The notes under the pieces were generated by a model. That model was given only the letters and a program-made list of their open reading frames with translations. It did not search any database and had not been told where the DNA came from. Both the position numbers and the translations under genes were made by a program. From a virus (Duplodnaviria; Caudoviricetes), in the IMG/VR virus record IMGVR_UViG_3300042569_001606, positions 1 to 52,775 of that record: DNA of 52,775 nt; one strand, 5' to 3'. Positions 5,958-52,690 of the stretch are shown here, piece by piece; positions within the stretch are counted from its first letter, which is position 1, and each line of letters starts with the position of its first letter.

Positions 5958-5974
5958 CGCTGCGGGATGCAGCG
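5958..5974 (+). promoter_or_regulatory. GGGAN-loop hairpin, copy F
   Basis: CGCTGC GGGAT GCAGCG immediately before GAGGAG RBS. Confidence 0.7.
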
Positions 5975-5989
5975 CATGAGGAGCAAGCG

Positions 5990-6460
5990 GTGGACGAAGT
6001 AGCGGCGACAGCATGGGCGGGAGCGGTGAAGATGGCGGCGCGATCGAAGGATCGCCGTGGCCTTGTCTCCGCTCTCGTCTTTCACGAAGGGCAGAGCTAC
6101 CGCGTCGAGGTCGCAGCGATGTACGTCGAGCCCGACAACTACGACCACCGGGCCAAGATTCCGAGCCCCTATAACGTCGCCACACGCTGGCAGCTCGTTG
6201 TGCGGCTGGACCTCGAAGGCGCGGCGCGGACCAAGAGCCCGACAGACGACACGGCCATTCTGGGTGTGCTCTCGCAGGTGCAGGCCGCGATCACGGTGCT
6301 CTTCGAGCCCGGTCAGGTGCCTGGCCTCAAGGCAACGTTCGCGCGGACCAAAGCGCAGCTCGCATACGAAACGTGGCGCGGCGGCGACGTCGGCGGCGCA
6401 ACGTGGGTGGTCCGCAAGGGCCGCTGGGTTTCTCTCCACAGCGCACTGATTCAATGGTGA
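5990..6460 (+). CDS. Hypothetical protein
   Basis: GTG start 6 nt after GAGGAG. Confidence 0.7.
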   Translation: MDEVAATAWAGAVKMAARSKDRRGLVSALVFHEGQSYRVEVAAMYVEPDNYDHRAKIPSPYNVATRWQLVVRLDLEGAARTKSPTDDTAILGVLSQVQAAITVLFEPGQVPGLKATFARTKAQLAYETWRGGDVGGATWVVRKGRWVSLHSALIQW

Positions 6461-6464
6461 GGGT

Positions 6465-6956
6465 GTGATGCTTTTTTCGGAAGTGTTGATGGCGTCATCC
6501 GTCGAGGATGGCGAAGTGATGGAAGACGGGCGCCCTGTGCGCCTGCGCGTGATTCTCCAGCGGCGTTGGGGCTGGCCACGAGCGGCGGCGAACGCGGCGG
6601 CGGAGATCCTGCGAGCGAGGGCCGCACCGGGCCGTGCCGTCGTTCACCTCGTCGGGGCGGAGCGAATGCAGCAGCAACAAGAGCTGCTGCGCAGCCACCC
6701 CGACCTCGTGACCGGGCTCTGCGAAGGACTCGCACGCGGCAAGGTGCACACCGACGAGCACGAAGCCGGCTTGCGTATCCGCCGCATCGAGCTGTCGCTG
6801 TCGCACACGGTCCACAATCTCGGGCTCGTGAGCGACATCCTGGCCTTGCTCGAACAGCGGTTTGGCTCCGAGCTGGCCGACGTCGTGATCACCCCTCACG
6901 GCGCGGGCACCAACCCTGCGGTCGCGATCGCCGTATCGCTGACGGATGACCAGTGA
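6465..6956 (+). CDS. Hypothetical protein (start uncertain)
   Basis: Fills the operon; stop overlaps the next start. Confidence 0.6.
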   Translation: MMLFSEVLMASSVEDGEVMEDGRPVRLRVILQRRWGWPRAAANAAAEILRARAAPGRAVVHLVGAERMQQQQELLRSHPDLVTGLCEGLARGKVHTDEHEAGLRIRRIELSLSHTVHNLGLVSDILALLEQRFGSELADVVITPHGAGTNPAVAIAVSLTDDQ

Positions 6957-7231
6957 CCGAGGCGCCGGTGGTCCCGTGGATCCTCGGCACGAGGCTGGCG
7001 CTTGCGAGGGCGCTGGCTCTCGTCGTCGCCGAGGAACGCAAGCTGTGCTGGGGTCGGATGACCCCGGCACAGCGCGATCGGCTCGTGGCAGAAGCAGAGC
7101 GCCGCGTGCAACGCTGGGTGGCGGAGGGTGCTGCGCGCACCTTCCTGTCGGAATGGAGAGAGCCCCTTGTTGAAGCGAACACCGATGAAGCGGTCGACGA
7201 AGCCGATGGCTCGACGGAGCAAGAAGGCTGA
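6953..7231 (+). CDS. Hypothetical protein
   Basis: GTGA overlap with the upstream stop. Confidence 0.5.
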   Translation: MTEAPVVPWILGTRLALARALALVVAEERKLCWGRMTPAQRDRLVAEAERRVQRWVAEGAARTFLSEWREPLVEANTDEAVDEADGSTEQEG

Positions 7232-7529
7232 AGCGCGATACGCCGGCACCGACGGCAAGGGCGAAGGCCGACGCGACTTCGTGCGGCGCATTCTCGATGA
7301 GCGCCCGGAGTGCGAGGTGGCCTTGCCGCAATGGTGCGACCGCCAAGCGACCGAGGTGCACGAGAAGTTGCGCCGCTCCGCAGGCGGCAACATCACCGAC
7401 GACGCCAACGTGCTTGCGGTCTGCCACTGGTGCCATCAGTGGGTGCACGCCAACCCCGCGATGAGCATGAAAAAGGGCTGGCTGCTGTCGAGATACGACG
7501 GCGACGACGAGGTGGAAGCGTGCGACTGA
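7170..7529 (+). CDS. HNH endonuclease
   Basis: CEV..C..ATEVHE...N..AVCHWCHQWVH; basic KRTPMKR N-terminus; start approximate. Confidence 0.8.
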   Translation: MKRTPMKRSTKPMARRSKKAEARYAGTDGKGEGRRDFVRRILDERPECEVALPQWCDRQATEVHEKLRRSAGGNITDDANVLAVCHWCHQWVHANPAMSMKKGWLLSRYDGDDEVEACD

Positions 7530-7801
7530 CCAGCAAGGACAGCGAGATTGCCCGCCAGTGGATCGCAGAGCGCGATCGCATCAGCGGCTCTGCGTCGTTC
7601 CTCGACGGGCGCTTTGAGCTTGCCCCCTACAAGGGCGCCGACATCTTCGTCACCGCCGACGTTGCCGAGGGCAACAAGATGCTCGCTCGTGGCATCGCCC
7701 TCGACAACGTCGCGGCGGCGCTCGCTGCCCGTGCGGTCGCGAGAGAGCACGGGGCCACGGCGACTCAGCGTGCCCTCGTGAACCTGTTTTCACTGGAGTA
7801 G
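7520..7801 (+). CDS. Hypothetical protein
   Basis: GAGG RBS and GTG start. Confidence 0.6.
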   Translation: MRLTSKDSEIARQWIAERDRISGSASFLDGRFELAPYKGADIFVTADVAEGNKMLARGIALDNVAAALAARAVAREHGATATQRALVNLFSLE

Positions 7802-7810
7802 GGAGCAGCC

Positions 7811-8452
7811 ATGCAAGACCACACGAGCACCGCCCGCACGATCCACACTCGCCCCATCGCGGACTTCAAGCCGGACCCTCACAACGCACGGCAGCACAGC
7901 GCCCGAAACCTTGAGGCGATCCGGGAGTCCCTTCACGTCTTCGGGCAGGTGAAGCCGATCGTTGCCCTCGACGACGGTACGGTTATCGCGGGCAACGGAA
8001 CGCTGACCGCCGCCAAGATGCTCGGCTGGACGCACCTTGCTGCCGTCATCTTTCCCGACGTCGAGAAGGCCAAGGCGTTCGCCATCGCCGACAACCGCAC
8101 CGCCGAGCTGGCCGAATGGGACCAGGTTGCGTTGGCGACCGCGCTGCAAAGTTTCTCTGAGGAAGCGATCGCAGCAGCCGGCTTCGACCTCAACGAAGCG
8201 GCCAGCATCATGTCGGCGGCGTTCTCCGCTGCTGTGCCGCTCCCAGAGGCACCGCCAGACCTTCCGCCGCCGCCTCCCCCGCCTCGGGAGCGGCCTGACC
8301 TCCCAACGAGCACCACGCGCACTGTGCACCTCCACTTCACGCCGGAGGCAGAGGTGAAGTTCACCAAGGCGGTGAAGAAGCTGGCCAAGCAGTTCGGCAC
8401 GGCAAACGTCACCGACACGGTGCTGGCGGCGCTGCTGAAGGCGGTGGGCTGA
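7811..8452 (+). CDS. ParB/Srx-like N-terminal domain protein
   Basis: PHNARQH..FGQVKPIV..VIAGNGTLTAA..AFAIADNRTAELAEWD. Confidence 0.85.
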   Translation: MQDHTSTARTIHTRPIADFKPDPHNARQHSARNLEAIRESLHVFGQVKPIVALDDGTVIAGNGTLTAAKMLGWTHLAAVIFPDVEKAKAFAIADNRTAELAEWDQVALATALQSFSEEAIAAAGFDLNEAASIMSAAFSAAVPLPEAPPDLPPPPPPPRERPDLPTSTTRTVHLHFTPEAEVKFTKAVKKLAKQFGTANVTDTVLAALLKAVG

Positions 8453-9279
8453 TGTCGGCGTGGAAAGGACCGAAGCAGCTGATCCCCATGCTCGTGGACC
8501 GTCAGCAGCTCGCTGCTGACCCTCGCAACGCACGAGCCCACGATGCCCGCAGCATCAAAGCGATCGCCGAGAGCCTAGACCGCTTCGGACAGCGCAAGCC
8601 GATCGTGGTCCGCCGAGGTGTCGTCATCGCCGGCAACGGCCAGCTCGCTGCGGCGGAAGCCCTGGGGTGGGATCGCATTGCTGTCGTCGACGGCTCCGAC
8701 CTCAGCGACACGGACGCCACCGCCTTCGGGATTGCCGACAACCGCACGGCTGAGTTGTCGACGTGGGACACCGACATCTTGAAAGAGCTGATGGCGGACC
8801 TTCCGACGGACGTCAGCATTGCGCTGGGCTTCGACGGTGAGGAGCTGACGGCATTGTTTGCTGAAACACCCGACGGCGACGAAGCGCCGAAGGCCACCGA
8901 CGGCATCGACGACACGTACACCGCCAAGATCGCTTCTCCGGTTTACGAGCCGCGCAACGAATGCCCTCCCGTTGCTGATCTTGTTGACCGCACAAAGACA
9001 GTGAAGCTCAAGGCTGAGATCGATGCTGCTGACCTCCCTGCCGATGTCGCGGCGTTTCTTCACCTTGCGGCGGAGCGTCACGCTGCTTTCGACTTCCACC
9101 GCATCGCAGATTTCTACGCCCACGCCGACGCACCAACGCAGCGGCTGATGGAGCGCAGTGCCCTCGTCATCATCGACTTTCAGCAAGCGATCGATCAGGG
9201 CTACGTGCGGCTGTCGCAGGTGACGGGTCAGCTCGCCGAGAAAGAGAAGCCGAAGGCCGGTGACGACGATGAGGTCTGA
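8452..9279 (+). CDS. ParB/Srx-like domain fused to an uncharacterised helical C-terminal domain
   Basis: PRNARAH..FGQRKPIV..VIAGNG..IADNRTAELSTWD; C-terminal FLHLAAERH..IADFYAH..SALVIIDF. Confidence 0.82.
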   Translation: MSAWKGPKQLIPMLVDRQQLAADPRNARAHDARSIKAIAESLDRFGQRKPIVVRRGVVIAGNGQLAAAEALGWDRIAVVDGSDLSDTDATAFGIADNRTAELSTWDTDILKELMADLPTDVSIALGFDGEELTALFAETPDGDEAPKATDGIDDTYTAKIASPVYEPRNECPPVADLVDRTKTVKLKAEIDAADLPADVAAFLHLAAERHAAFDFHRIADFYAHADAPTQRLMERSALVIIDFQQAIDQGYVRLSQVTGQLAEKEKPKAGDDDEV

Positions 9280-10123
9280 CTTTGCCGCATTCATCCTCAC
9301 GCATGGCCGACCCGATCGCGTCCACACCTACAAGACGCTGATGGAAGCCGGCTACACCGGCAAGGTGTATTTCATCGTTGACGACGAGGACGTCACCGCC
9401 GATGCCTACCGCGCACGATTCGGTGAAGAGCGTGTGTTGACGTTCAGCAAAGCGGAGGCTGCCAAGCTGTTCGACATCGGCGACAACTTCGAGGGCCGAC
9501 GCGGCGTGGTCTACGCTCGCAACGCTGCTTGGGGTCTTGCTCGCTCAGTGGGGCTGAAGCACTTCATTGCCCTCGACGATGACTACACGAGCCTGTTCTA
9601 CCGCTACGACAGTCGGGGCGCCTACGGCTCTTTCCGCATCCGCCGCACCGTCGACGATCTGCTGGAAGCGCTTGTGGCGTTCATGGAGGCGACGCCCGCT
9701 CTGACCATCACGATCTCCCAGGGCGGTGACCACATCGGCGGCGCGAACGACACGCTGAGGCTCAAGCGCAAAGCGATGAACACTTTTGTGTGCTCGGTGG
9801 ATCGCCCGTTCCGATTCGATGGCCGCATCAACGAAGACGTCAACGCCTACGTCATGGAGGCTCGACGTGGGCGTTGCATGTTCACCCTCATGCAAGCGCA
9901 GGTGAACCAGCTGATGACGCAGAGCAACGCTGGAGGGATGACCGAGCTGTATCTGGACAGCGGCACCTACGTGAAGAGCTTCTACAGCGTGATGCTGGAA
10001 CCGAGCTGCGTGCGGATCGGCCAGCTCGCCGATCCGAGGTCACCGCACTGGCGCTTCCACCACGCGATCAACTGGCGGAACGCTGCTGTCCAGATCGTCC
10101 ACGAACGACACCGGAAGATCTGA
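9269..10123 (+). CDS. GT-A fold glycosyltransferase-like protein (GREB1/TET-associated GT type)
   Basis: ILTHGRP, YARN, LDDDY (DxD), NEDVN and QSNAGGMT motifs. Confidence 0.7.
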   Translation: MRSDFAAFILTHGRPDRVHTYKTLMEAGYTGKVYFIVDDEDVTADAYRARFGEERVLTFSKAEAAKLFDIGDNFEGRRGVVYARNAAWGLARSVGLKHFIALDDDYTSLFYRYDSRGAYGSFRIRRTVDDLLEALVAFMEATPALTITISQGGDHIGGANDTLRLKRKAMNTFVCSVDRPFRFDGRINEDVNAYVMEARRGRCMFTLMQAQVNQLMTQSNAGGMTELYLDSGTYVKSFYSVMLEPSCVRIGQLADPRSPHWRFHHAINWRNAAVQIVHERHRKI

Positions 10124-10125
10124 AG

Positions 10126-10178
10126 TAGACAGCAGGCGGTGATTCTCCTAAAAGAGAATCACCGGCGCGGGATGCGCC
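10126..10178 (+). promoter_or_regulatory. Sigma70-like promoter with overlapping palindrome, plus hairpin copy E
   Basis: TAGACA-17bp-TAAAAG; GGTGATTCTC/GAGAATCACC inverted repeat 10138-10163; GGCGC GGGAT GCGCC 10164-10178. Confidence 0.65.
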
Positions 10179-10193
10179 TCACGAGGAACCGCA

Positions 10194-11066
10194 ATGAGCG
10201 CCGAGAACAAAACCACAAGCCTGCTGCCGTCGATCTCTGTCGTCGACGTCGTGCGCCACCGCAACGAGATCGTCGACAAGCTCAAGCAAGCCGCAGGAAT
10301 CTTTGGCGAGGCCGTCGCCATCGGCAAGAGCATGGAGGTCTACGGGCTCGACGCTTCGCTGTCGCTGTCGGTGTCCAGCTACTCGCACCGCCTCGGCTGG
10401 TTCGGCGACAAGGAGCTGACCGAGCAGCTGACGAAAGACGTCGACCGTCGCATCTGGCAGACGCTCATCGAGCGCAGCGGGATCAAGACCTTCATGGATT
10501 CCGAGGCACGCGAAGCCTTCCACAAAGACCTGATGGACCGAGCCCCGCCGATCTCTGTCGAGAACGTCACGGCCACCTTCGCCTCTCTGCACGATCGCCG
10601 CGCCGAGATGTTTGAGCGCGGTGTGGTGAACCTGTTCCGCCGTCGCTCGTGGGACTTCAAGACCAACAGCCCGGTCGCCTTCGGCAACAAGATGATCCTC
10701 CGCAGCGGCTGCGAGACGCGCTGGGGTGGACGCTGGGGCCTCGGCATCATGGCCGGCACGAGCGACGCCCTCGACGACATCCTGCGCGTTCTGGCGGTGC
10801 TCGCTGGGCACCCCGAGCCCGACCACCGTCAGGGCTCCGCCGCGCAGATCGTCGCCCAGCCGTGGGGCCCCAACGATCCCGTCGCGGTCATCGGTGTGCC
10901 TGGGTGCACGCCAGCGCTGCCGATGTTCGAGGTCAAAGGCTTCCGCAACGGCAACATCCACATCCGCTTCGTCCAACCGCAGCTGATCCAGAAGCTGAAC
11001 CGGATCGTGGCGAAGCATCACCCCAACATGCTGCCCCCCAGCGAAAAGGAAGTGGCCAATGGTTGA
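10194..11066 (+). CDS. DUF4942-like protein
   Basis: IWQTLIERSG..FERGVVNLF..FKTNSP..FEVKGFRNGNIHIRF pattern recalled for this family. Confidence 0.75.
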   Translation: MSAENKTTSLLPSISVVDVVRHRNEIVDKLKQAAGIFGEAVAIGKSMEVYGLDASLSLSVSSYSHRLGWFGDKELTEQLTKDVDRRIWQTLIERSGIKTFMDSEAREAFHKDLMDRAPPISVENVTATFASLHDRRAEMFERGVVNLFRRRSWDFKTNSPVAFGNKMILRSGCETRWGGRWGLGIMAGTSDALDDILRVLAVLAGHPEPDHRQGSAAQIVAQPWGPNDPVAVIGVPGCTPALPMFEVKGFRNGNIHIRFVQPQLIQKLNRIVAKHHPNMLPPSEKEVANG

Positions 11067-11337
11067 GCCAGCGACAGAGCGCTACCTGCGCGCACAGATC
11101 GAAGCCCTCCGCACCGACGCCAAGATCGTCGCCCAGCACCGTGAGGCTGAGCGCGCCATGTACCGCACGCGCATCGACGCGCTCAAAGGTGCGCTGGAGA
11201 AGGCCGCGTTGCGCAACTTTGCCTCTGGCCCGTGCTTCTGCACGGTGCCGATCCCCGAGGGCACCGCCCATCACCTCAGCTGCCAGCACATCCGCAACGT
11301 GCTCGCCAACGACGGAAAGGTGGTCACCAATGGCTGA
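11059..11337 (+). CDS. Hypothetical protein
   Basis: AGGA RBS, overlaps neighbours, CFC..HH..C. Confidence 0.6.
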   Translation: MVEPATERYLRAQIEALRTDAKIVAQHREAERAMYRTRIDALKGALEKAALRNFASGPCFCTVPIPEGTAHHLSCQHIRNVLANDGKVVTNG

Positions 11338-18272: not shown

Positions 18273-18295
18273 TCTCAACAAAAAGAACATCAGCG

Positions 18296-18350
18296 CTTTC
18301 CTTTTTATGGGAAACGCCGTAGAACAGATCACACGGTGCGGGATGCACCG
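18296..18350 (+). promoter_or_regulatory. Promoter-hairpin cassette D
   Basis: CTTTCCTTTTTATGGGAAACGCCGTAGAAC then CGGTGC GGGAT GCACCG then GAGGAG. Confidence 0.75.
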
Positions 18351-18365
18351 CACGAGGAGCCCACA

Positions 18366-18764
18366 ATGTCGAACATCATCCGCACCTTCCGCAGCAAGCC
18401 TTTCGTCGTCATCGCCCGCGACACCAGCGACGTGATCGGCAGCGCAGGCAACAAAGCCCTCGCCAGCGCGATCGGCGCCAGCAAGGCCAGTGAAAACGGT
18501 TACCGCGTGATCGACCTCAGCGACGTCGACGGCTTCCAAGAAGCCGCTGTGAACGCTGCCGATATTGGCAGCGCAATTGTAGCCCAGTACGCCAGCGGCC
18601 TTTCATGCGGGGCAATCGACTGCTGGCTGCGCGAGTCGAAGAACCGATCGTTCCTCGTCGGCGAAACCGTAGCTGACCGTCTGCGCAAGACACTTGGCAA
18701 GCTGTCTCGCGAAGCTGCACGCAAGCAGGTCGCTCAGTGGATCCTCGAAGGGGCCACGGGTTGA
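18366..18764 (+). CDS. Hypothetical protein (moron-like)
   Basis: GAGGAG RBS; follows cassette D. Confidence 0.7.
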   Translation: MSNIIRTFRSKPFVVIARDTSDVIGSAGNKALASAIGASKASENGYRVIDLSDVDGFQEAAVNAADIGSAIVAQYASGLSCGAIDCWLRESKNRSFLVGETVADRLRKTLGKLSREAARKQVAQWILEGATG

Positions 18765-45463: not shown

Positions 45464-45522
45464 TGGGATCTCCTGTGCGTGGAAGGGAAAGCGGAGCCCA
45501 CCCGCGTTGGGGCTCCGGGGGA

Positions 45523-45738: not shown

Positions 45739-45743
45739 CGAGG

Positions 45744-45986: not shown

Positions 45987-45995
45987 TTGAGTCTC
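45975..45995. repeat. 21-bp direct repeat, copy 2
   Basis: Identical to 45718-45738. Confidence 0.9.
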
Positions 45996-46047
45996 GTTTC
46001 GTGGAAGAGGGGAGCGGGCGGCACCACCGCCGCCCGCTGGGGGTCGC

Positions 46048-46269
46048 TCAGAGCGGCTTGGCTGCGCGGTAGCAGGATGCGCCCATCGGGAAGCAGCCTT
46101 GGCTGACCTCGCCCTCCGGCATCGTCGAGGTGGTCTTGTAGTAGTTGCCGCTCTCGCTCATCTCGACCCACTGGATGGTGGCGTGGTTCTTCAGAGCCTT
46201 GCCGCAGCACTGGCACTCGAAGCGGGTGGCGGCGTTTTCGGCGAGAGCTGCGGTGGTGAGTTCGTGCAT
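46048..46269 (-). CDS. Small Cys-containing hypothetical protein
   Basis: CQCCGK..SQGCFPMGASC; GAGGA RBS. Confidence 0.7.
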   Translation of the reverse strand: MHELTTAALAENAATRFECQCCGKALKNHATIQWVEMSESGNYYKTTSTMPEGEVSQGCFPMGASCYRAAKPL

Positions 46270-46285
46270 TTGGTCTTCCTCGTGT

Positions 46286-46340
46286 GGCGCGTCCCGCGCC
46301 GATGAGTTGACCCTACGCCGATTCTCAAAAAAAGGAAAAG
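46286..46340 (-). promoter_or_regulatory. Promoter-hairpin cassette C
   Basis: Minus strand TTTCCTTTTTTTGAGAATCGGCGTAGGGT then GGCGC GGGAC GCGCC. Confidence 0.75.
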
Positions 46341-46375
46341 AGAAAACGGCGCAGATCGCTCCGCGCCGTTTTCTC
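46340..46375 (-). terminator. Terminator whose T-tract runs into cassette C
   Basis: 13-bp inverted repeat GAGAAAACGGCGC/GCGCCGTTTTCTC. Confidence 0.7.
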
Positions 46376-46408
46376 GTCTTTGGGAAGCCCTGATCTCTGT
46401 CTCAGATC

Positions 46409-47068: not shown

Positions 47069-47130
47069 GGTGCTGTCCGTTCTGTGTGGTCGTTGCGGTT
47101 ACGGGTGACTGGTTCTCGTGCTGTGCTGGG

Positions 47131-47943
47131 CTACTCTGCCGAGGTGCCCAGCTTTGTCCAGATGGCGACACGCTCAGCCAGCGCGGCGTCGTCGGGAGGT
47201 GGCTGCCCGAGCATTCGGGCGATGACGTGCAAGGGCTCGACGGGCTCTCTGTTGTCGAGGCCAGCGGCGATCTTCGTGGTGTACCGCTCCCCTGCGTAGA
47301 AGCTGATCTGTCGACGCACAGCGCCGCTCTGCATCTCGGCGGAGTGCACGTAGCCCACCGCCTGGACGAACTGCGCCAGCTCGTTGGGCAGCTTCTTCCC
47401 GAGCACCGCAGGCCGGTGGACCATGCCCATGCCCTCCACCTTTTCCTCGGCGTCGAGGGTGATCACGACGACGTGGGCGTGAGCGTCGCGGATCGTGCGC
47501 ATCAGGCTGGCGGTCTTGTCGAGGATGACGCCCCACGTGTCGAGGTCGGTGACGTCCTGGCGCTTCTCCTGCCGGCTGGTGAAGTGCTCTTTGATCATCC
47601 GCTGCGCGTCGGTGAGCGAGTCGAGCACGACGCTGTCGAACCGCTTGCCGATGTTCGGCGACGCAGCGAGGGCCACGAAGTCGATCAAGTCCTGGAACGA
47701 CTCGATGACGAACACGGACGCCTTGGGGTTGATCCGCTTGATCGACGGCACCGCCTGCTTCTCGGTGAGCCCGATCAGTGGGCGAGGCATCCCGGCGCCG
47801 AAAGACGTCTTGCCGGCGCCGCTGGGCCCGTAGAGCAGGATCTTGGCTTTGTCGAGGCTGGCCATGTCGTCGGCGCTCTTGATGCGGTCAAGGATCGACG
47901 GCTTCACTGGCTTTGCTGCTGGTGCTGGTTGTTCTTCGGCCAT
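47131..47943 (-). CDS. AAA_24/Sak4-like ATPase
   Basis: KILLYGPSGAGKT, VVLDSLT. Confidence 0.85.
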   Translation of the reverse strand: MAEEQPAPAAKPVKPSILDRIKSADDMASLDKAKILLYGPSGAGKTSFGAGMPRPLIGLTEKQAVPSIKRINPKASVFVIESFQDLIDFVALAASPNIGKRFDSVVLDSLTDAQRMIKEHFTSRQEKRQDVTDLDTWGVILDKTASLMRTIRDAHAHVVVITLDAEEKVEGMGMVHRPAVLGKKLPNELAQFVQAVGYVHSAEMQSGAVRRQISFYAGERYTTKIAAGLDNREPVEPLHVIARMLGQPPPDDAALAERVAIWTKLGTSAE

Positions 47944-47996
47944 TGGCGTTCTTTCTGCCCGCGTGGGGCTGCTTGCTGGTCTGCAAGGTGGGGAGG

Positions 47997-48245
47997 TCAG
48001 AAGGGGAGGGTGTCGCCAAAAGATGCGCGACCAAGTTGGGTCATGCCGTCACGGATACGGTGGCGGGTAGCGTCGTCGACACGGGTGAGCACGAGGAACG
48101 CGCTACACGCAGACTCGGTGCCGTAGAACACGACGCTGTGCGGCTCCACGCTGTTGGGGTCGTAGGCGATCACGAAACACTGGTCAGGGTCAGGCGTTCC
48201 GGTGTTGTCGACGGAGGGGCAGAGGTACAGCACGACGTTGGACAT
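47997..48245 (-). CDS. Hypothetical protein
   Basis: AGGAG RBS. Confidence 0.65.
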   Translation of the reverse strand: MSNVVLYLCPSVDNTGTPDPDQCFVIAYDPNSVEPHSVVFYGTESACSAFLVLTRVDDATRHRIRDGMTQLGRASFGDTLPF

Positions 48246-48303
48246 TGGGTTCTCCTGCGTGGGAAAGGGCGCCGACCGAAGCCAGCGCCGTGAAGGGTGA
48301 GGG

Positions 48304-48480
48304 TCAGACGTCCCAGCCGATGGACCGGGCGAACGCGATCAGGCTCTCCATCGCCTCGTCGTCGTCAATGCTTTCATCCCACGGCATCTCGTCTTCGGTG
48401 GGCTGTTGGTCGTCGTCGATGCCCTCGCATCGAGCGCAACCGCAGTAGGACGATTCGGGGTTGAAGTGGCTGGTGAACAT
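48304..48480 (-). CDS. Small acidic protein with CGCARC
   Basis: GAGGAG RBS; follows cassette B. Confidence 0.65.
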   Translation of the reverse strand: MFTSHFNPESSYCGCARCEGIDDDQQPTEDEMPWDESIDDDEAMESLIAFARSIGWDV

Positions 48481-48497
48481 CGGTGGGCTCCTCTTGG

Positions 48498-48552
48498 GCT
48501 GCATCCCGCAGCTCGTGAGCGACCCTAACCCGGATTCGCATAAAAAGGAAAG
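48498..48552 (-). promoter_or_regulatory. Promoter-hairpin cassette B
   Basis: Minus strand CTTTCCTTTTTATGCGAATCCGGGTTAGGGT then GCTGC GGGAT GCAGC. Confidence 0.75.
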
Positions 48553-48558
48553 TCCTTT

Positions 48559-49878
48559 CTACGCAAACGGATCTGTCTCTGGCTTCCACTCGTTTGATGG
48601 CTCTGCATCGCGTTGCTTAAAGCGGAAAGGCAACCCGAGCTTGGCGGCTTTTTCGCGCTCCGGTGTGATCGCCCACGGTCCGGAGAGATCACCCCGCAGC
48701 TCTTCGTGGCGCACCGATCGCAGCTGGTACCCGATTCGCACCTGTGCGCCGTCCTCCAAGCAGATGCGGGAGTAGGGGCAGGGGTTGGCCGCAGGACCGA
48801 CGCACGAGGCCACCTGACGCGGGTGATACGGGCGCCGCTGTGCCTCGATGCGCGTGAGCGCCCACCAGCCTGCATCGGTCTGCCAGTCGTCGAGGTCACC
48901 TTGCCCGAGTGGGTACCGCTCACGGGCGAAAAACTGGCGGTTGCTCAGGGCGTCGAGCACGTCGGCATACCTGCCGGGGTCGAGCCCGTTGGCGAGGATC
49001 GTCTGGAGGTAGACGGCCCGCGTCGTGTCGATCCGCTTGTCCCTCGACAGCCCCGGCGAAACCGGGTGCGGCGTCGCCTTCGTGGGCTTCGGCGGAGCCA
49101 GCATCTCCGGGACACGCGGCACGCTCTTACGCAGCGTGTTGTAGATGACGCCTGCGACCTCGACGGGCACCTTGACGTCGGAGATCGATGCGATCGGGTC
49201 GCGCAGCAGCCACGCATAGCAGCGGATCTGGGGGTCCAGGCGGAGCTTGCGCCCGTAGCGGATCAGGTCGCGCTCCGCCGTCGTCTTGTGCTCGACGATC
49301 CACACGAGCCCGGTGCTTCGCTCCCGGATGAGCAGGTCCATCTCGCCGCCCTGTGCCCACCGGCGCCACGTTTTCTTGCCCGTGAGCGTCACGAGCTGGC
49401 CCTGACTCAGCTCGGTTGCGGGTGGCCTGTCGAGGATCGGCCCGCCGTGTTCCGGGTGCACGAGCCAGCGGCCCACCTGCGTGCCCACACCCAGGATCTC
49501 CCACTCTGTCGAGTCGTGCTGCCAGTGGTGCTCGACGTAGTGGGCGAACATCCCCCAGCTCTCGGCGGCGATCTCGTTGTTCTCCCGGTGCATCTCGTCG
49601 GGCATCAGGCCCTCGTATGCGGCCACGGCCTCGGCAACAGCGGCGCGGCGCTGGTCCAGCCACGGCTCGATGACGGCCCCGTACAACCAGAGGCACGACT
49701 GCGGCGGCAAGCAGCCGTTGCGGTACCACGCGTCAAGCAGCCTGTGGACCAACGAGCCCTGCCTGAGCGCAGCGGGCGACTCTCCCTTGGGGGCAAGGCC
49801 CTCGACGTAGCGGAAGGCCCATTTGCGCTCGCAGGCGGAGGTGCCGCGCTCGCTGTTCGTGACGACTCGCATCAGCAT
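48559..49878 (-). CDS. PD-(D/E)XK exonuclease, Cas4/AddB-like
   Basis: ACERKW, GSLVH, GEMDL..IVEHKT, QIRCY, C-terminal C..C..C. Confidence 0.85.
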   Translation of the reverse strand: MLMRVVTNSERGTSACERKWAFRYVEGLAPKGESPAALRQGSLVHRLLDAWYRNGCLPPQSCLWLYGAVIEPWLDQRRAAVAEAVAAYEGLMPDEMHRENNEIAAESWGMFAHYVEHHWQHDSTEWEILGVGTQVGRWLVHPEHGGPILDRPPATELSQGQLVTLTGKKTWRRWAQGGEMDLLIRERSTGLVWIVEHKTTAERDLIRYGRKLRLDPQIRCYAWLLRDPIASISDVKVPVEVAGVIYNTLRKSVPRVPEMLAPPKPTKATPHPVSPGLSRDKRIDTTRAVYLQTILANGLDPGRYADVLDALSNRQFFARERYPLGQGDLDDWQTDAGWWALTRIEAQRRPYHPRQVASCVGPAANPCPYSRICLEDGAQVRIGYQLRSVRHEELRGDLSGPWAITPEREKAAKLGLPFRFKQRDAEPSNEWKPETDPFA

Positions 49879-50540
49879 CAGAGATCTCCGAAGTCGCGGG
49901 GTTCATCGGCCAGCAGATCGTCGAGGTCGGCATCACCGAGGCCGCCCGACGTCATGCCCATCCGGACCAGCGACTGGTAAGCGGCCTGCTCTCCGCCATC
50001 CGGGTCGTGGAGCTCAAGCCCAAGGTGGCCATCGCGTTCAAGGGTGGCGCGGCGGGTTCGTGGAAGGTCGACGGTGCGGATCTCGTCGTGGTTGAGGGTG
50101 CCGGTGTTCGTGTTGAACCTCACGTCATCGTCGTCGCCGACCCATTCCTGCTTGTTCAGGGCGGCGACAGCGTTGACCACACGGCGGCAGGTGGCGATGT
50201 CCATCTGGCCCATGTGCGCCTGCTCCGGGGTGAGCCGCAGCGTCGAGGCCAGCCAGCCGTAAGCCTCGCCACGCGTCATCGTGCCGTTGCGCCAGAGGCG
50301 ATCGAACACCGCGTGGGCGAGGGACCGAGCCCGCCGCAGCTCAGGGTTTGCGGGCACGCCCAGCGCCTTGTCGGTGCCAGGGTGGCAGCCAACCCACCCG
50401 CCACAGCCCTCGCAGAGCCAGAACAGCTTGTCCTTGAGGTCGACGCGGCCCCGGTACAGCTCGTCGCCTCGACGAAGCCGCATCTGTATGCGGCCACCGC
50501 AGCACGTCGACGGTGCGCGTTTTGGAATGCGGAAGGCCAC
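49878..50540 (-). CDS. DUF3268-like zinc-finger protein
   Basis: CEGCGGWVGCHPGT..LG..A..LRRAR..H..FD.LW..AYGWLA..H. Confidence 0.8.
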   Translation of the reverse strand: MAFRIPKRAPSTCCGGRIQMRLRRGDELYRGRVDLKDKLFWLCEGCGGWVGCHPGTDKALGVPANPELRRARSLAHAVFDRLWRNGTMTRGEAYGWLASTLRLTPEQAHMGQMDIATCRRVVNAVAALNKQEWVGDDDDVRFNTNTGTLNHDEIRTVDLPRTRRATLERDGHLGLELHDPDGGEQAAYQSLVRMGMTSGGLGDADLDDLLADEPRDFGDL

Positions 50541-50542
50541 GG

Positions 50543-50758
50543 TTACCCCCAGAAGTCGACGGGTTCCACGTCGACGGCAGTGGCGATGGCTTCGAGGCTC
50601 GACACCTGAAGCGCTGCGCCGTTTTCGTTGATCGCCCGGTACAGCGTCGAGGTGGACAGGCCTGCGGCTTTGGCGACCTCCGCCGTGCTCACGCCGATCC
50701 GTTCGCGGGCCTCGGTGAAAACCTTGGTGAACTGAAACTTCTGCTTCTTGCTGGCCAT
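50543..50758 (-). CDS. XRE-family HTH regulator
   Basis: ARERIGVSTAEVAKAAGLSTSTLYR..LEAIATAVDV; AAGGAG RBS. Confidence 0.85.
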   Translation of the reverse strand: MASKKQKFQFTKVFTEARERIGVSTAEVAKAAGLSTSTLYRAINENGAALQVSSLEAIATAVDVEPVDFWG

Positions 50759-50787
50759 GTTCTTGTTTCTCCTTTGCGGGAATGCGC

Positions 50788-52308
50788 TCAGAAAGCGCGG
50801 ATTGGCGTGCCTGCCCCGTCGAGGGCGGCAAGCACGAGGGTTTTGCGGGCACGGGTGATCGCGACGTAGGCCAGATTGCGTTCCTGGCCGACCTCCCACG
50901 CCTGCTTCGCCATCCGCGACGGCAGCCGGTGGGGGTCAAGGATCACGACGCGGTCAGCTTCGGAGCCCTTGGCCTTGTGGATCGTCGAGAGCGTGACGAC
51001 GTTCTTCACCTCGTCAGAGAACATCGACGTGATCGCCTCTTCCAGCTCGGGCAGCGTGCGCACTTCGAGGGCGAAGGCCCGCAGCGTCTCCACCTTGTCG
51101 TGGAGCGCTTCCAGCTTGTGCTCGTGGCCGGCCTTCTTCAGCTTCTCGGTCTGCGTCTTGGTGTAGCTGACCAGCTTTTCCAGCAGGTGCGACACTGACG
51201 TGGGGCGGAGCTGCTTCACGAGGGCGCTGAGCCCCTGGCCGATCTCGCGACCGAGCACGCGACACGGCACGCGCTTGCGCAGGAGGCGATAGGCCAGCGT
51301 GATCAGCGGAGCGGTGTTGCGGCAGATGACGAAGTCATCGGCAAGCCAGTCGTGTTTCTCCAGCGACGGCGCCAGCACGACGGTACCCGCAGGAGCCCCG
51401 GCGACTGCTTCGAGGTGCGGCACGAACTGCTTGGCGATCGCGACGACGTCGGTGGGGCAACGGTAGGTGACCGTGAGGGGGAACGCCTGAGCGCCAAACT
51501 CCCGACCGATGGCCCCGAGGCTGTCGCTGTCGGCGCCACGGAAGCCGTAGATGGCCTGATGGGCATCGCCCACGGCGATCAGGCGCCCGTCGTCAGCAAC
51601 CGCGCCGTGCAGCATCTTGCGCTGAATCGCGCTCACGTCTTGGGCCTCGTCGATCATCACCCACTTGAACCGGGGCATCGGCAGCCCAAGCACGACGGTC
51701 AGGTACAGCTGGTCGTCGAAGTCGATCACGTTCGTGTCGAGCAGGCCGATGCGGAGCACCTTGCGGGCGTGCTCGATGGCCTGCGGCATCAGCGTGTCGT
51801 CGTTGTACGGCGCCGCGATGTCGAAGTGGTCGATGATGTGATCCCACTCCGCCTTCGTGTCCTCGACGATGCCCACCGCGTTGTGGATGCCGCTCGGAAC
51901 AAGGCCGACGGTCTTGGCTTTGCCCACGAGCTTGCTGACCGTCGACGCCCACTTGCGGCACTCGGCGGAGCCTTTTCCAAACAGGTTGTCGATGATCGTG
52001 CTGGTCTTCTTGGCGTCGAGGCGAACGTTGCCAAACTCTCGGCAAACGCAGCGGTGACCGAGGCTGTTGAGCGTCATCGCGCTGACGTGCGACGGCATCC
52101 CGCGACCCTGCACCTCTTCCACGGCCTTCTTGTTGAAGGCGAGGTAGAGCACGCGATCGGTGCTGGGGATCCGCGTTGCTGCTTCGCGCAGCGTCGTCGT
52201 CTTGCCGGAGCCCGCGACCGCTTCGAGGATCGCGGCGCGGTGCTTGGGCGCGGGATCCTCTACCCAGGAGAAGAACGCGGCGTGCTGTGGGGTGATCTGA
52301 AAAGCCAT
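50788..52308 (-). CDS. UvrD/Rep-like SF1 helicase
   Basis: AVAGSGKT, IDEAQD, VGDAHQAIYGFRGA, TYRCP, TIHKAKGSE, YVAITRAR. Confidence 0.92.
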   Translation of the reverse strand: MAFQITPQHAAFFSWVEDPAPKHRAAILEAVAGSGKTTTLREAATRIPSTDRVLYLAFNKKAVEEVQGRGMPSHVSAMTLNSLGHRCVCREFGNVRLDAKKTSTIIDNLFGKGSAECRKWASTVSKLVGKAKTVGLVPSGIHNAVGIVEDTKAEWDHIIDHFDIAAPYNDDTLMPQAIEHARKVLRIGLLDTNVIDFDDQLYLTVVLGLPMPRFKWVMIDEAQDVSAIQRKMLHGAVADDGRLIAVGDAHQAIYGFRGADSDSLGAIGREFGAQAFPLTVTYRCPTDVVAIAKQFVPHLEAVAGAPAGTVVLAPSLEKHDWLADDFVICRNTAPLITLAYRLLRKRVPCRVLGREIGQGLSALVKQLRPTSVSHLLEKLVSYTKTQTEKLKKAGHEHKLEALHDKVETLRAFALEVRTLPELEEAITSMFSDEVKNVVTLSTIHKAKGSEADRVVILDPHRLPSRMAKQAWEVGQERNLAYVAITRARKTLVLAALDGAGTPIRAF

Positions 52309-52324
52309 TGTGCTGTCCTCGTGT

Positions 52325-52339
52325 GCTGCTTCCCGCAGC
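52325..52339 (-). promoter_or_regulatory. GGGAN-loop hairpin, copy G
   Basis: Minus strand GCTGC GGGAA GCAGC then ACACGAGGA. Confidence 0.7.
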
Positions 52340-52359
52340 GGTGTGCTTGTGGTGGTTGC

Positions 52360-52623
52360 TCAGCCGTTGAGCGGCCAACCGCTTTTCTTCCAAACGGTGT
52401 TCTGCGTGATCTTCTTGCCGACCTTGACGACGTGGTCGACGACGACGTCAGCGACCGGGTTGATGTCAACCCTGCCGGACTCGTGAGCGACCGTCGCCGC
52501 ATAGATGGCGGCTTTTTCGGTGGCGTGGGTACGACCGATCTGAACCCAGCTCTGCGAGCGCAGGCACCAGTACTTGGCGACGTAGAACTCTGAGGCTTTG
52601 GGCTCGGTCTTGAGGGTGAACAT
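52360..52623 (-). CDS. Hypothetical protein, first gene of the leftward arm
   Basis: AGGAGG RBS. Confidence 0.7.
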   Translation of the reverse strand: MFTLKTEPKASEFYVAKYWCLRSQSWVQIGRTHATEKAAIYAATVAHESGRVDINPVADVVVDHVVKVGKKITQNTVWKKSGWPLNG

Positions 52624-52638
52624 CGGCGGACCTCCTGT

Positions 52639-52690
52639 GTCGCATCCCGCGACCCGCCGACCGTAACCCGCATTCGCAAAAAAAGGAAAG
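52639..52690 (-). promoter_or_regulatory. Promoter-hairpin cassette A
   Basis: Minus strand CTTTCCTTTTTTTGCGAATGCGGGTTACGGT then GTCGC GGGAT GCGAC. Confidence 0.75.

What the first reader, a model, noticed from the sequence alone, without database searches (positions are those of the whole stretch)
5958..52653. Seven covarying GGGAN-loop hairpins at a fixed distance from start codons: candidate new phage RNA regulon
Seen, on the coding strand: GCTGC-GGGAT-GCAGC (5959-5973 +), GGCGC-GGGAT-GCGCC (10164-10178 +), GGTGC-GGGAT-GCACC (18335-18349 +), GGCGC-GGGAC-GCGCC (46286-46300 -), GCTGC-GGGAT-GCAGC (48498-48512 -), GCTGC-GGGAA-GCAGC (52325-52339 -), GTCGC-GGGAT-GCGAC (52639-52653 -). The core GCGGGA-N-GC is invariant, while the outer stem takes four different sequences that always stay paired. 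Every copy is in sense orientation, ends 15-17 nt before the start codon and abuts the Shine-Dalgarno. In five copies it begins 6-9 nt after a putative -10 box, i.e. at the mRNA 5' end. Established: CsrA/RsmA binds GGA in hairpin loops next to a GGA-containing RBS, and boxB hairpins recruit antiterminators. The loop here lacks the A of the ANGGA consensus. Inference: a structure-specific site for a host or phage RNA-binding protein that co-regulates accessory genes and the UvrD-like helicase. The ASCH/PUA-like protein at 11818 is one candidate reader.
Basis: partly seen in the sequence, partly recalled or inferred. Interest (0 to 1): 0.85.

Follow-up and report, generated by a model that had tools for sequence, protein, structure and literature searches.

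The report
Hairpin-tagged ribosome-site module in a phage
An uncultured freshwater phage puts the same tiny RNA hairpin, joined at a fixed distance to a strong ribosome-binding site, in front of eight of its genes; this is a real but lineage-restricted control tag of a kind seen in other phages, and what reads it is unknown.

Summary
There are eight copies, not seven; the missed one is at 3590-3604 (+). Each is a 15-nt hairpin (5-bp stem, GGGAN loop) exactly 4 nt before GAGG, and a start codon follows 14-17 nt after the hairpin. All eight are in sense orientation. Shuffles expect 0.4 such hairpins and 0.04 with an SD. Two stem positions vary, and all 55 stem cells stay Watson-Crick. No Rfam family matches.

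The window is a complete 52.6-kb lytic-looking siphovirus. Its endolysin points to a Gram-negative host. The module recurs only in about 90%-identical relatives. It is absent from NP1-like phages, from 160 loci of terminase relatives, and from bacterial genomes as a multi-copy motif. In relatives, gene swaps end at the module.

Best reading (0.4): a portable mRNA leader that works as a shared translational operator, the invariant loop plus the C.CA.GAGG tail, for an unidentified factor. Four copies are fused to a shared promoter-like block.

A cis-only stabiliser or insulator role is the main rival. CsrA, boxB and the ASCH protein have no positive support.

It is a new variant of the known start-associated and PeSL-type phage cassettes. 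This scan has noted similar modules in other phages.

The parts
3590..3621 (+). Downstream gene is a RuvC-like resolvase, 3619-4266. The module lies inside the 3' end of the primase/helicase ORF, which ends at 3704.
   Evidence: (41.1 bits)
5959..5992 (+). Module 2: hairpin 5959-5973 GCTGC-GGGAT-GCAGC (a 6th C-G pair is possible), GAGGAG 5978-5983, GTG 5990. Downstream gene is a 156-aa protein with no family. The hairpin begins 12 nt after the upstream stop.
   Evidence: (40.7 bits)
10164..10196 (+). Module 3: hairpin 10164-10178 GGCGC-GGGAT-GCGCC, GAGGA 10183-10187, ATG 10194. Downstream gene is a DUF4942 protein, 10194-11066.
   Evidence: (43.0 bits)
10138..10163 (+). Separate 10-bp stem-loop (loop CTAAAA) that abuts module 3 on its 5' side. 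No T-run follows it. Partly kept in the relative L013.
18335..18368 (+). Module 4: hairpin 18335-18349 GGTGC-GGGAT-GCACC (a 6th pair is possible), GAGGAG 18354-18359, ATG 18366. Downstream is a 132-aa protein with no family, the first gene of a small-gene block between terminase and portal.
   Evidence: (42.5 bits)
18295..18334 (+). Promoter-like block of module 4: TTTCCTTTTT 18297-18306, then a -10-like TAGAAC at 18320-18325, 9 nt before the hairpin.
46267..46300 (-). Module 5: hairpin 46300-46286 GGCGC-GGGAC-GCGCC, GAGGA 46281-46277, ATG 46269. Downstream is a 73-aa Cys-rich protein.
   Evidence: (39.4 bits)
46301..46340 (-). Promoter-like block of module 5: TTTCCTTTTT 46338-46329, then a -10-like TAGGGT at 46315-46310, 9 nt before the hairpin.
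46340..46375 (-). Intrinsic terminator (16-pair stem) whose T-run is the T-rich start of the promoter-like block. It caused the spurious Rfam CsrC match.
48478..48512 (-). Module 6: hairpin 48512-48498 GCTGC-GGGAT-GCAGC, GAGGAG 48493-48488, ATG 48480. Downstream is a 58-aa acidic Cys-containing protein.
   Evidence: (40.2 bits)
48513..48553 (-). Promoter-like block of module 6: TTTCCTTTTT 48551-48542, then a -10-like TAGGGT at 48527-48522, 9 nt before the hairpin.
52306..52339 (-). Module 7: hairpin 52339-52325 GCTGC-GGGAA-GCAGC, GAGGA 52320-52316, ATG 52308. Downstream is a UvrD-like helicase, 52308-50788. No promoter-like block.
   Evidence: (39.0 bits)
52621..52653 (-). Module 8: hairpin 52653-52639 GTCGC-GGGAT-GCGAC, GGAGG 52635-52631, ATG 52623. 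Downstream is an 87-aa protein, the first gene of the leftward arm. The hairpin spans the edge of the 127-bp terminal repeat.
   Evidence: (36.6 bits)
52654..52691 (-). Promoter-like block of module 8: TTTCCTTTTT 52689-52680, then a -10-like TACGGT at 52665-52660, 6 nt before the hairpin. The copy at 32-41 is the terminal-repeat duplicate.

Best explanation
The element is a portable mRNA leader module of about 27 nt. It has a 5-bp (sometimes 6-bp) G+C-rich hairpin with the invariant top GC-GGGAN-GC. Exactly 4 nt later comes the Shine-Dalgarno GAGG, inside an invariant C.CA.GAGG tail.

I read it as a shared translational operator. Hairpin top and tail together are recognised on the RNA by one trans-acting factor, most likely a phage early protein, possibly a host factor. 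That factor sets ribosome access, and with it message stability, for eight cistrons.

In four copies the module is fused to a shared T-rich promoter-like block, so the hairpin would sit at or within a few bases of the 5' end of the transcript. In the other four it is internal to a longer message.

Because the same sequence heads unrelated genes, it is also a preferred breakpoint for gene replacement between related phages.

Shown: the anatomy, the covariation, the rigid spacing, the orientation and the breakpoints. Inferred: that it acts as RNA, that a factor reads it, and the direction of regulation.
For: - **Discrete family.** 8 hits at 36.6-43.0 bits; the next hit is 13.3 bits. This is far beyond chance.
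- **Position.** 8 of 8 copies are in sense orientation, and a start codon follows at 14-17 nt.
- **Covariation.** Across 11 distinct sequences (8 window copies plus 4 from relatives), 55 of 55 stem cells pair. Two positions show 4 and 2 Watson-Crick pair types. 0 of 500 shuffles reach the observed pairing or covariation score, and slid registers drop to 14-53% paired.
- **Constraint beyond structure.** The flanks and stem positions 2-3 have diverged. Yet 16 of 30 columns are invariant in all 12 sequences: the 9-nt top GCGGGA.GC, plus C, CA and GAGG in the tail. A stability hairpin or an SD alone does not need this.
- **One unit.** The hairpin-to-GAGG spacing is 4 nt in 12 of 12, while GAGG to start varies from 10 to 13 nt.
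- **Not a general habit.** Other hairpins before starts are at background: 12 of the 56 other genes against 17% of random windows.
- **Portability.** In L017 the terminator/promoter/hairpin block of module 5 is near-identical and homology ends at the SD/start, with a different gene behind it. In L013 the module-4 position carries another stem (the stem of module 8) and another gene. In run X16 a 256-letter replacement ends 3 nt upstream of hairpin 7.
- **Transcription.** No phage RNA polymerase or sigma region 2 was found, so host polymerase is expected. The T7-type polymerase family rang in none of the 14 control genomes, so its blank carries little weight.
Against: - No reader has been identified. 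Pfam and PHROGs were run on part of the genes: the 8 downstream proteins against both, 10 large replication/structural proteins and 10 tail/lysis-arm proteins against PHROGs only, and 20 other early-arm proteins against Pfam only. None gave an RNA-binding family. Many small ORFs were not scanned at all. Two Atlas look-ups gave nothing.
- No transcript data exist. No listed run is on record as RNA, and the runs laid were contigs. The 5' ends, and even transcription of the copies without a promoter block, are unproven.
- All variable pairs are Watson-Crick and there is no G-U pair. So nothing tells an RNA hairpin from a DNA one. Perfect short inverted repeats can also be kept perfect by templated repair, without selection on RNA (my knowledge).
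- Equilibrium folding with 33 nt of coding sequence predicts the hairpin with P>=0.5 in only 3 of 8 copies (short context) or 4 of 8 (40-nt context).
- All comparative evidence comes from paralogous copies and from relatives at about 85-91% identity. No distant phage keeps the module, so long-term conservation is untested.
- The eight genes share no evident function.
Confidence: 0.4

Rival explanations
1. Cis-acting only. The hairpin is a 5'-terminal or intercistronic stabiliser and insulator. It blocks 5'-end-dependent decay and keeps upstream RNA from pairing with the strong SD beside it. No specific factor reads it. Loop and tail are alike because the copies share a recent origin or because GGGA(N) folds as a stable GNRA-like loop.
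For: - In four copies the hairpin starts 6 or 9 nt after a -10-like hexamer, which would put it at the mRNA 5' end.
- 5' stem-loops, and strong SDs that hold ribosomes, are both documented mRNA stabilisers (passages of review PMC7509114 citing Emory et al. 1992 and others).
- The hairpins are stable on their own, -6.2 to -9.5 kcal/mol.
- GGGA fits G-N-R-A, and the fifth loop base is the only variable one (T, C, A).
Against: - Stability alone does not explain why all 12 copies keep GGGA rather than any GNRA or other stable loop, keep both closing pairs, and keep C.CA before GAGG, while neighbouring positions have diverged.
- Four copies have no promoter block, and one lies inside an upstream ORF.
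- Only 8 genes carry the module. At least six other genes that follow gaps of more than 50 nt in the same arms lack it.
Confidence: 0.25
2. DNA-level site. The asymmetric 9-bp core is an operator for a phage DNA-binding protein (a MarR-like or HTH protein is encoded), acting just downstream of promoters or as an oriented roadblock like the stoperators of Cluster A mycobacteriophages. Alternatively the hairpin forms in single-stranded DNA.
For: - A MarR-family protein is encoded at 42719-43072 (-) and a weak HTH lies in the 461-aa first rightward gene.
- No G-U pairs distinguish RNA from DNA.
- Oriented 13-bp stoperators are mentioned as a contrast in PMC3203893.
- Short inverted repeats 14-22 bp before starts are described in Cluster EG and Cluster O phages.
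Against: - A double-strand reader does not need the variable stem bases to stay complementary, yet 22 of 22 variable cells do.
- The rigid 4-nt link to GAGG and the 14-17 nt to the start point to the ribosome site, not to a promoter.
- Four copies have no promoter-like block.
- No integrase or resolvase was found, so lysogenic silencing is unlikely.
Confidence: 0.1
3. Host CsrA/RsmA target. A CsrA dimer bridges the GGA in the loop and the GGA in the SD and represses the eight genes.
For: GGA lies in a hairpin loop, and a second GGA lies in the SD 12 nt downstream. That is inside the 10-63 nt bridging range. The glgC leader has the same layout (passages of PMC7652899).
Against: - The ACA that was 100% conserved in SELEX ligands is absent; GCG precedes GGA.
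- The loop is 5 nt where most ligands had 6. The stems are 5-6 G+C-rich pairs where most ligands had four or fewer.
- The Rfam CsrC match is an artefact of a terminator.
- The phage has no CsrA gene.
- The host is unknown. The nearest endolysins are from Caulobacter, Pelagibacter, Stenotrophomonas and Brevundimonas phages. The CsrA family did not ring in the Caulobacter control genome, which is in the control set.
- The module is not a multi-copy motif in 120 bacterial hits.
Confidence: 0.08
4. Processing site. A phage or host endoribonuclease recognises the hairpin and cuts next to it, freeing each downstream cistron with a defined 5' end just before its SD.
For: - Geometry only: a small hairpin with an invariant top, 4 nt before the SD, also inside polycistronic stretches (modules 1, 2, 3, 7).
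- T4 RegB shows that phages do cut at translation-initiation regions.
Against: - No nuclease of that kind was found among the proteins scanned. Specific families were not searched for.
- RegB cuts GGAG itself and inactivates messages, which is the opposite logic.
- There are no RNA data.
Confidence: 0.07
5. No function of its own. The copies are footprints of repeated cassette recombination, a hitch-hiking repeat spread with acquired genes.
For: - Breakpoints coincide with the module in relatives.
- Modules 6 and 8 even share 12 nt across the start codon.
- The module is confined to one lineage.
Against: Neutral copies would decay evenly. Instead substitutions avoid 16 of 30 columns and are always compensated in the stem.
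Confidence: 0.06
6. boxB-like site for an N-type antiterminator.
For: - The overall size matches what I recall for boxB: 5-bp stem, 5-nt loop, possibly GNRA-like. This is a recollection; one search was only a listing of papers on boxB pentaloops.
- Module 5 follows a strong terminator.
Against: - There are eight copies, each locked 4 nt from an SD, instead of one or two per operon.
- No boxA-like partner was noticed.
- No N-like protein was identified.
- Only 1 of 8 copies has a clear terminator nearby.
Confidence: 0.04

Closest known systems
Start-associated sequences (SAS) with extended SAS: Cluster K mycobacteriophages (Pope et al. 2011, PMC3203893) and Cluster EF Microbacterium phages (PMC7302621)
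   Same: - Multi-copy, one-orientation, over-conserved motifs at the ribosome-binding site of non-structural genes.
- They head unrelated genes, are lineage-specific, and have an unknown function and reader.
- Even the letters overlap: the SAS consensus is GGGATAGGAGCCC, and here GGGAT ... GAGGAGCC(C).
   Different: - Here GGGAN and the SD are 12 nt apart, with GGGAN displayed in a hairpin loop.
- The inverted repeat is 5 bp and fully compensated. The authors saw little support for RNA hairpins in the 17-bp ESAS repeats.
- The host is probably Gram-negative, not an actinobacterium.
PeSL (promoter-early stem-loop) cassettes of T4-type phages (Arbiol et al. 2010, PMC2839356; Comeau et al. 2014, PMC4122927)
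   Same: - A composite terminator / promoter / SD / start unit repeated before accessory genes.
- It sits at insertion, deletion and replacement junctions between close relatives.
- Module 5 has exactly terminator, T-rich block and -10-like hexamer.
   Different: - In PeSLs the stem-loop lies upstream of the promoter and its sequence is loosely defined. Here the defining hairpin lies downstream of the promoter-like block, abuts the SD and has an invariant loop.
- Four copies have no promoter block.
- No sigma-70 consensus promoter was found by the scan (0 sites in the two stretches scanned, 1-20000 and 36000-52775).
- This is a siphovirus-type phage, not a T4-type myovirus.
Short inverted repeats before starts in Cluster EG Microbacterium phages (18 bp, 14-22 bp upstream) and Cluster O mycobacteriophages (PMC7302621; PMC4351075 seen as a listing only)
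   Same: 8-10 copies per genome of a small inverted repeat at a fixed short distance before start codons of one arm.
   Different: Those repeats are conserved in sequence (consensus GATCAACCNNGGTTGATC) with a 2-3 bp centre, like a duplex operator. Here the arms vary and covary, and the conserved part is the asymmetric 5-nt centre.
Translational operators of phage T4: gp43 (hairpin plus RBS-overlapping sequence) and the multi-gene repressor RegA (review PMC3014915)
   Same: - A bipartite RNA site, a small hairpin with a sequence-specific loop plus a sequence at the ribosome-binding site (gp43).
- One protein controlling many initiation regions (RegA).
   Different: - The gp43 operator is a single autoregulatory site.
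- RegA sites are unstructured.
- No homologous protein or binding is shown here.
CsrA/RsmA binding sites (review PMC7652899)
   Same: GGA in a hairpin loop plus GGA at the SD within bridging distance.
   Different: No ACA, a pentaloop instead of a hexaloop, longer and stronger stems. The presence of CsrA in the host is unknown.

Membership tests
CsrA/RsmA binding site | GGA in the loop of a hairpin | tested here: met
   GGA occupies loop positions 2-4 in 12 of 12 copies.
CsrA/RsmA binding site | ACA before GGA (SELEX consensus RUACARGGAUGU, ACA 100% conserved); mostly 6-nt loops and four or fewer stem pairs | tested here: not met
   GCG precedes GGA, the loop is 5 nt, and the stems are 5-6 G+C-rich pairs.
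CsrA/RsmA binding site | Second GGA at the SD, 10-63 nt from the first | tested here: met
   12 nt lie between the two GGA in all copies.
CsrA/RsmA binding site | A CsrA protein present in the phage or host | tested here: inconclusive
   PF02599 is not found in the phage. The host is not identified.
SAS/ESAS of actinobacteriophages | Contiguous 13-bp asymmetric consensus at the RBS, 3-7 bp before the start | tested here: not met
   GGGAN and GAGGAG are separated by the 3' stem arm plus 4 nt. Only the GAGGAG(CC) part sits at the RBS.
SAS/ESAS of actinobacteriophages | Many copies, one orientation, before non-structural genes of different families | tested here: met
   8 of 8 copies are in sense orientation. 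7 are in the replication/accessory arms and 1 heads a small-gene block between terminase and portal. The downstream proteins are unrelated.
PeSL cassettes | Stem-loop (terminator) upstream of a sigma-70-like early promoter, then SD and start | tested here: not met
   The family hairpin lies downstream of the promoter-like block. A terminator is seen upstream in 1 of 8 copies. 0 sigma-70 consensus sites were found in the two stretches scanned.
PeSL cassettes | Located at indel or replacement junctions between close relatives | tested here: met
   Of the 4 modules covered by L013 and L017, 3 have a homology break within about 50-110 nt (10117; 18363; 46405 and 46264) and 1 (48498) lies in unbroken homology. 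X16 has a replacement that ends 3 nt from hairpin 7. The 2 other replacements in that run set are not at modules.
boxB/nut antitermination site | One or two sites per early operon, with a boxA partner and an N-type protein | tested here: not met
   There are eight sites, each 4 nt from an SD. No boxA-like repeat or N-like protein was noticed, and no dedicated search was made.
Intrinsic terminator | G+C-rich hairpin followed by a T-run | tested here: not met
   The hairpin is followed by nCAnGAGG in all copies. The two terminator-like calls at 3604-3590 and 18355-18329 are on the antisense strand.
Any Rfam 15 family | Match at or near the gathering score | tested here: not met
   The whole window at E<=1 gave one match, CsrC at 26.8 bits against a gathering score of 61, placed on the terminator at 46340-46375 and not on a hairpin.

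The most novel reading that the evidence does not exclude
The GGGAN hairpin plus C.CA.GAGG tail is the operator of an undescribed phage-encoded multi-gene translational regulator. It would be RegA-like in reach, and gp43-operator-like or boxB-like in RNA geometry. It would also be one clean example of a widespread, unnamed class of hairpin-tagged ribosome-site modules that phages use both to co-regulate early genes and to swap them.
Probability: 0.3. Interest if true: 0.7.

Novelty: new variant of a known kind. Interest (0 to 1): 0.45.

Why it matters
Repeated, over-conserved motifs at the translation starts of phage early genes have been described for more than a decade: SAS/ESAS, PeSL, and the inverted repeats of Clusters O and EG. 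In the passages I read, none has an identified reader or mechanism.

This copy family is unusually easy to interpret. It is only about 27 nt long. It has a proven paired stem, an invariant loop and a rigid link to the SD. Loop, stem-breaking and compensatory mutants would therefore separate structure from sequence cleanly.

If a reader protein exists, it would define a new post-transcriptional regulon. It would also supply a compact, portable expression tag for engineering.

The module also marks where genes have been exchanged between relatives, which bears on how phage mosaicism is generated.

Limits: the phage is uncultured, its host is unknown, and the module is confined to one lineage.

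Tried and rejected
**Rfam.** The whole window at E<=1 gave only a CsrC match (26.8 bits against a gathering score of 61). Its alignment shows that the intrinsic terminator at 46340-46375 drives it. Rejected.

**tRNA.** None found.

**Near-identity search in the phage collection.** No match.

**Close relatives by single protein in IMG/VR.** Helicase: none. Primase/helicase: none. DUF4942 alignment: one contig.

**Exact-pattern scans.**
- IMG/VR strict pattern: 5 stretches, all with at least one broken stem pair.
- IMG/VR relaxed pattern: 109 stretches. Of 107 matches examined, 5 keep the stem. One of these is the known relative, which is about the 5% expected by chance.
- One lone 34.7-bit copy lies in a 126-kb phage.
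- Promoter-plus-hairpin pattern: only the two contigs of the near relative.
4 keep the stem with G-U allowed. None looks like a leader.

**Model R1 on other phages.**
- 4 NP1-like or related phages: best 10.9 bits.
- 80 IMG/VR loci of terminase relatives (1.01 Mb): best 20.6 bits.
- 80 metagenome loci (0.64 Mb): best 19.2 bits.
It therefore missed the 62% relative seen.

**RNA evidence.** No RNA holder is listed for the stretch. The four runs laid were contigs, which cannot show 5' ends. 569 difference rows were not shown, so I cannot say whether the hairpins vary in X7 or X16.

**Folding in context.** Inconsistent, P(hairpin) from 0.00 to 1.00.

**Phage genes looked for and not found.** CsrA, T7-type RNA polymerase (the control rang nowhere, so this is uninformative), sigma-70 region 2, tyrosine integrase, serine recombinase. 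Sigma region 4 gave only a 13-bit HTH hit.

**Atlas look-ups of the 87-aa and 156-aa proteins.** No usable lead.

**Host.** Unresolved.

**An 8-mer in the first gene's leader (252-259).** It is complementary to GGGAUGCA of three hairpins, but it occurs once, which is about what chance gives. Not pursued.

**Complementarity between the hairpin's 5' arm and the early coding region.** Seen in some copies. Judged not beyond chance by eye and not tested formally.

**Supplementary figures of PMC3203893 and PMC7302621.** Not seen. They hold the actual SAS, ESAS and Cluster EG alignments, so my comparison rests on the legends and text.

Full report
**What the window is.** The window is a complete IMG/VR virus record with a 127-bp direct terminal repeat, so the unique length is 52,648 bp. 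G+C is about 65%.

Genes run rightward from 307 to about 42,315 and leftward from 52,623 to 42,316.
- The rightward arm holds an HTH protein, primase/helicase, a RuvC-like resolvase, DNA methylases, two ParB-N proteins, a TET-associated-type glycosyltransferase, DUF4942, terminase, portal, capsid, tape measure, an M15-type endolysin and dCTP deaminase.
- The leftward arm holds a UvrD-like helicase, a DUF3268 protein, an exonuclease, an AAA_24 protein, a ParB-like protein, DUF5131 and a MarR-like protein.

No integrase or resolvase was found. No CsrA, sigma region 2 or T7-type polymerase was found either, although the polymerase control rang in no control genome, so that blank is uninformative.

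There is no close cultured relative.
- The helicase is about 40% identical to those of NP1/PaMx25-like Pseudomonas, Xanthomonas, Variovorax and Sphingomonas phages.
- The terminase is at most 36% identical to anything in the phage collection.
- The endolysin is nearest to those of Caulobacter, Pelagibacter, Stenotrophomonas and Brevundimonas phages.

A Gram-negative host is therefore likely, but it is not identified. Public runs holding the sequence are lake-water, aquatic and wastewater metagenomes.

**The observation.** A scan for any 5-bp stem around GGGAN found 13 hairpins. Eight share the core GC-GGGAN-GC and an SD. The extra one is at 3590-3604 (+), before a RuvC-like gene. The other five have no core and no SD, and three of them have G-U pairs. 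They are within the 4.2 +/- 2.0 expected from shuffles.

On the non-redundant sequence, shuffles give 0.40 core hairpins (max 3 of 300) and 0.037 with an SD (max 1). The observed count is 7, plus one that spans the cut. The bare 9-mer core is not enriched (13 against 7.9). The signal lies in the pairing and the placement.

A covariance model built from the eight copies scores them at 36.6-43.0 bits, and everything else in the window at 13.3 bits or less. The copies match the model by construction. The gap is the informative part.

**Anatomy.**
- All eight copies are on the coding strand of the gene that follows. The start codon lies 14-17 nt after the hairpin.
- Alignment of the eight, plus four from relatives, shows 16 of 30 invariant columns: the outer G-C pair, the top GC-GGGA-.-GC, and C, CA and GAGG in the tail.
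- The hairpin is always 4 nt from GAGG, while GAGG to the start varies from 10 to 13 nt. Hairpin and SD therefore form one rigid unit.
- Stem positions 2 and 3 take GC, CG, UA, AU and CG, UA respectively. All 55 cells pair. 0 of 500 shuffles reach this, and slid registers fall to 14-53%. No G-U pair occurs, so there is no RNA-specific signature.
- Alone, the hairpins fold at -6.2 to -9.5 kcal/mol. In longer contexts that include coding sequence, the predicted probability is erratic.
- Hairpins of other kinds before other starts are at background: 12 of 56 against 17%.

**Upstream context.** Four copies (18335, 46286, 48498, 52639) follow a shared block. It is TTTCCTTTTT(A/T)TG.GAA, then 6-7 nt, then a TAnnnT/C hexamer that ends 9, 9, 9 and 6 nt before the hairpin. 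At 46286 the T-run also ends a 16-pair intrinsic terminator. That terminator produced the only Rfam match, a sub-threshold CsrC hit, which I reject.

The consensus scan found no sigma-70-type promoter in the two stretches scanned, 1-20000 and 36000-52775. The block is therefore promoter-like by position and by its A2/T6-type hexamer only.

The other four copies lack the block.
- One lies inside the 3' end of the primase/helicase ORF.
- One starts 12 nt after a stop codon.
- One abuts a separate 10-bp stem-loop.
- One lies in a 51-nt gap.

**Relatives.** Two IMG/VR contigs from one sample (15.9 and 14.2 kb) are 83-97% identical over the aligned pieces, and 85-91% over the pieces longer than 500 nt. 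They carry four modules.
- At the position of module 3 the hairpin is unchanged while the flanks differ.
- At module 6 it is unchanged.
- At module 5 the whole terminator/promoter/hairpin block is near-identical, with the loop's fifth base changed. Homology stops at the SD/start and a different gene follows.
- At module 4 homology stops inside the promoter-like block. The hairpin there has the stem of module 8, and a different gene follows.

In a coded run, a 20-kb contig about 92-93% identical replaces 25 nt by 256 letters, ending 3 nt upstream of hairpin 7. Two other replacements in the laid runs are not at modules.

The module is thus portable and often sits at breakpoints. The sample is small, however, and intergenic breakpoints are expected anyway.

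**Distribution.** The module was not found in any of the following.
- 4 NP1-like or related phages.
- 160 loci around terminase relatives at 28-46% identity.
- Elsewhere in IMG/VR, apart from chance-level single hits.
- As a multi-copy motif among 120 bacterial or archaeal hits.

Relatives at 57-62% protein identity exist. Conservation over longer distances is therefore untested.

**Interpretation.** Three features argue for action on the mRNA at translation initiation: strand-specific placement, a fixed link to the SD, and covarying arms. The invariant loop, closing pairs and C.CA tail sit next to diverged neighbouring bases. They argue that sequence is read, not only shape.

The closest mechanistic precedent is the T4/RB69 gp43 operator, a hairpin plus an RBS-overlapping sequence. 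The closest in reach is RegA. I therefore favour a shared translational operator for an unidentified factor (0.4).

The main rival is a cis-only 5' stabiliser or insulator (0.25). It is well precedented and fits the four promoter-fused copies, but it leaves the sequence invariance unexplained.

The other readings rank lower.
- CsrA (0.08) fits only the two GGA and their spacing. It fails the ACA, loop-size and stem-length features.
- A duplex-DNA operator (0.10) does not explain the covariation.
- Processing site (0.07), neutral recombination footprint (0.06) and boxB-like site (0.04) have little support.
- The ASCH protein proposed as reader has only a sub-threshold domain hit.

**Comparison with what is known.** The kind is known. 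Examples are SAS/ESAS of Cluster K and EF actinobacteriophages, the short inverted repeats before starts in Clusters EG and O, and PeSL cassettes of T4-type phages. This element fails the defining features of each.
- SAS: the motif is not contiguous at the RBS.
- PeSL: the hairpin lies on the wrong side of the promoter.
- Cluster EG and O repeats: the arms covary instead of being conserved.

It does share their logic and their unsolved status. Earlier notes of this scan list several analogous mini-hairpin-plus-RBS modules in other phages and on a plasmid. I did not test those. They suggest that the class is common, and they lower the surprise of one more instance.

My searches of the paper library found no description of this particular motif. 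That covers only those terms and that library.

**Verdict.** This is a real, well-defined, lineage-restricted regulatory module. It is a new variant of a known but mechanistically unsolved kind, of moderate interest.

Noticed in passing
window 128-306 (+): The non-coding leader before the first rightward gene (307-1692, HTH-like) is very strongly structured: MFE -105.9 kcal/mol, z = -5.4 against shuffles. One stem (198-219) has the apical loop CGGGAA. Another carries TGCATCCT (252-259), which is complementary to GGGAUGCA of hairpins 2, 4 and 6. That 8-mer occurs once in the window, about what chance gives.
   Followed up: partly
window 18297-18306, 46329-46338, 48542-48551, 52680-52689; also 98-108 (+): A T-rich block TTTCCTTTTT has 4 unique exact copies. 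The up-to-one-mismatch search gave 10 hits against 0.51 expected. All 4 lie about 30 nt upstream of a family hairpin. A related TTTTCTTTTTT faces the other way in the divergent region at the genome ends. It may be a phage-specific promoter or UP-type element. In module 5 it doubles as a terminator T-run.
   Followed up: partly
window 48472-48483 and 52615-52626 (-): Modules 6 and 8 share 12 identical bases across the start codon (CCGATGTTCACC; both proteins begin MFT) and then diverge. This fits gene capture by recombination at the module.
   Followed up: no
window 3619-3704: The RuvC-like gene, whose start is marked by module 1, overlaps the end of the primase/helicase ORF by 86 nt. The N-terminal 45 residues of the RuvC-like protein are very basic.
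   Followed up: no
window 4263-13737 and 41731-44311: A dense set of DNA-modification-type genes: two DNA methylases, two ParB-N proteins, a TET-associated-type glycosyltransferase, DUF4942, a weak ASCH, dCTP deaminase and DUF5131. This suggests modified DNA.
   Followed up: no
window 13738-15797: A stretch of about 2 kb without a clear GC3-type coding signal in my crude gene call, although long ORFs exist there. It may hold genes of foreign composition.
   Followed up: no
window 37520-37551 (+), 41671-41705 (+), 46340-46375 (-): Three strong intrinsic terminators (14-16 pairs plus a T-run). They lie after the tail genes, before dCTP deaminase, and before module 5.
   Followed up: no
run X16 (coded 'organism A'), laid on window 45900-52775: A run labelled with an organism rather than a metagenome holds a 20-kb contig about 92-93% identical to the phage at depth 25.7. 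This is a possible lead to the host or to a culture that carries a relative.
   Followed up: no
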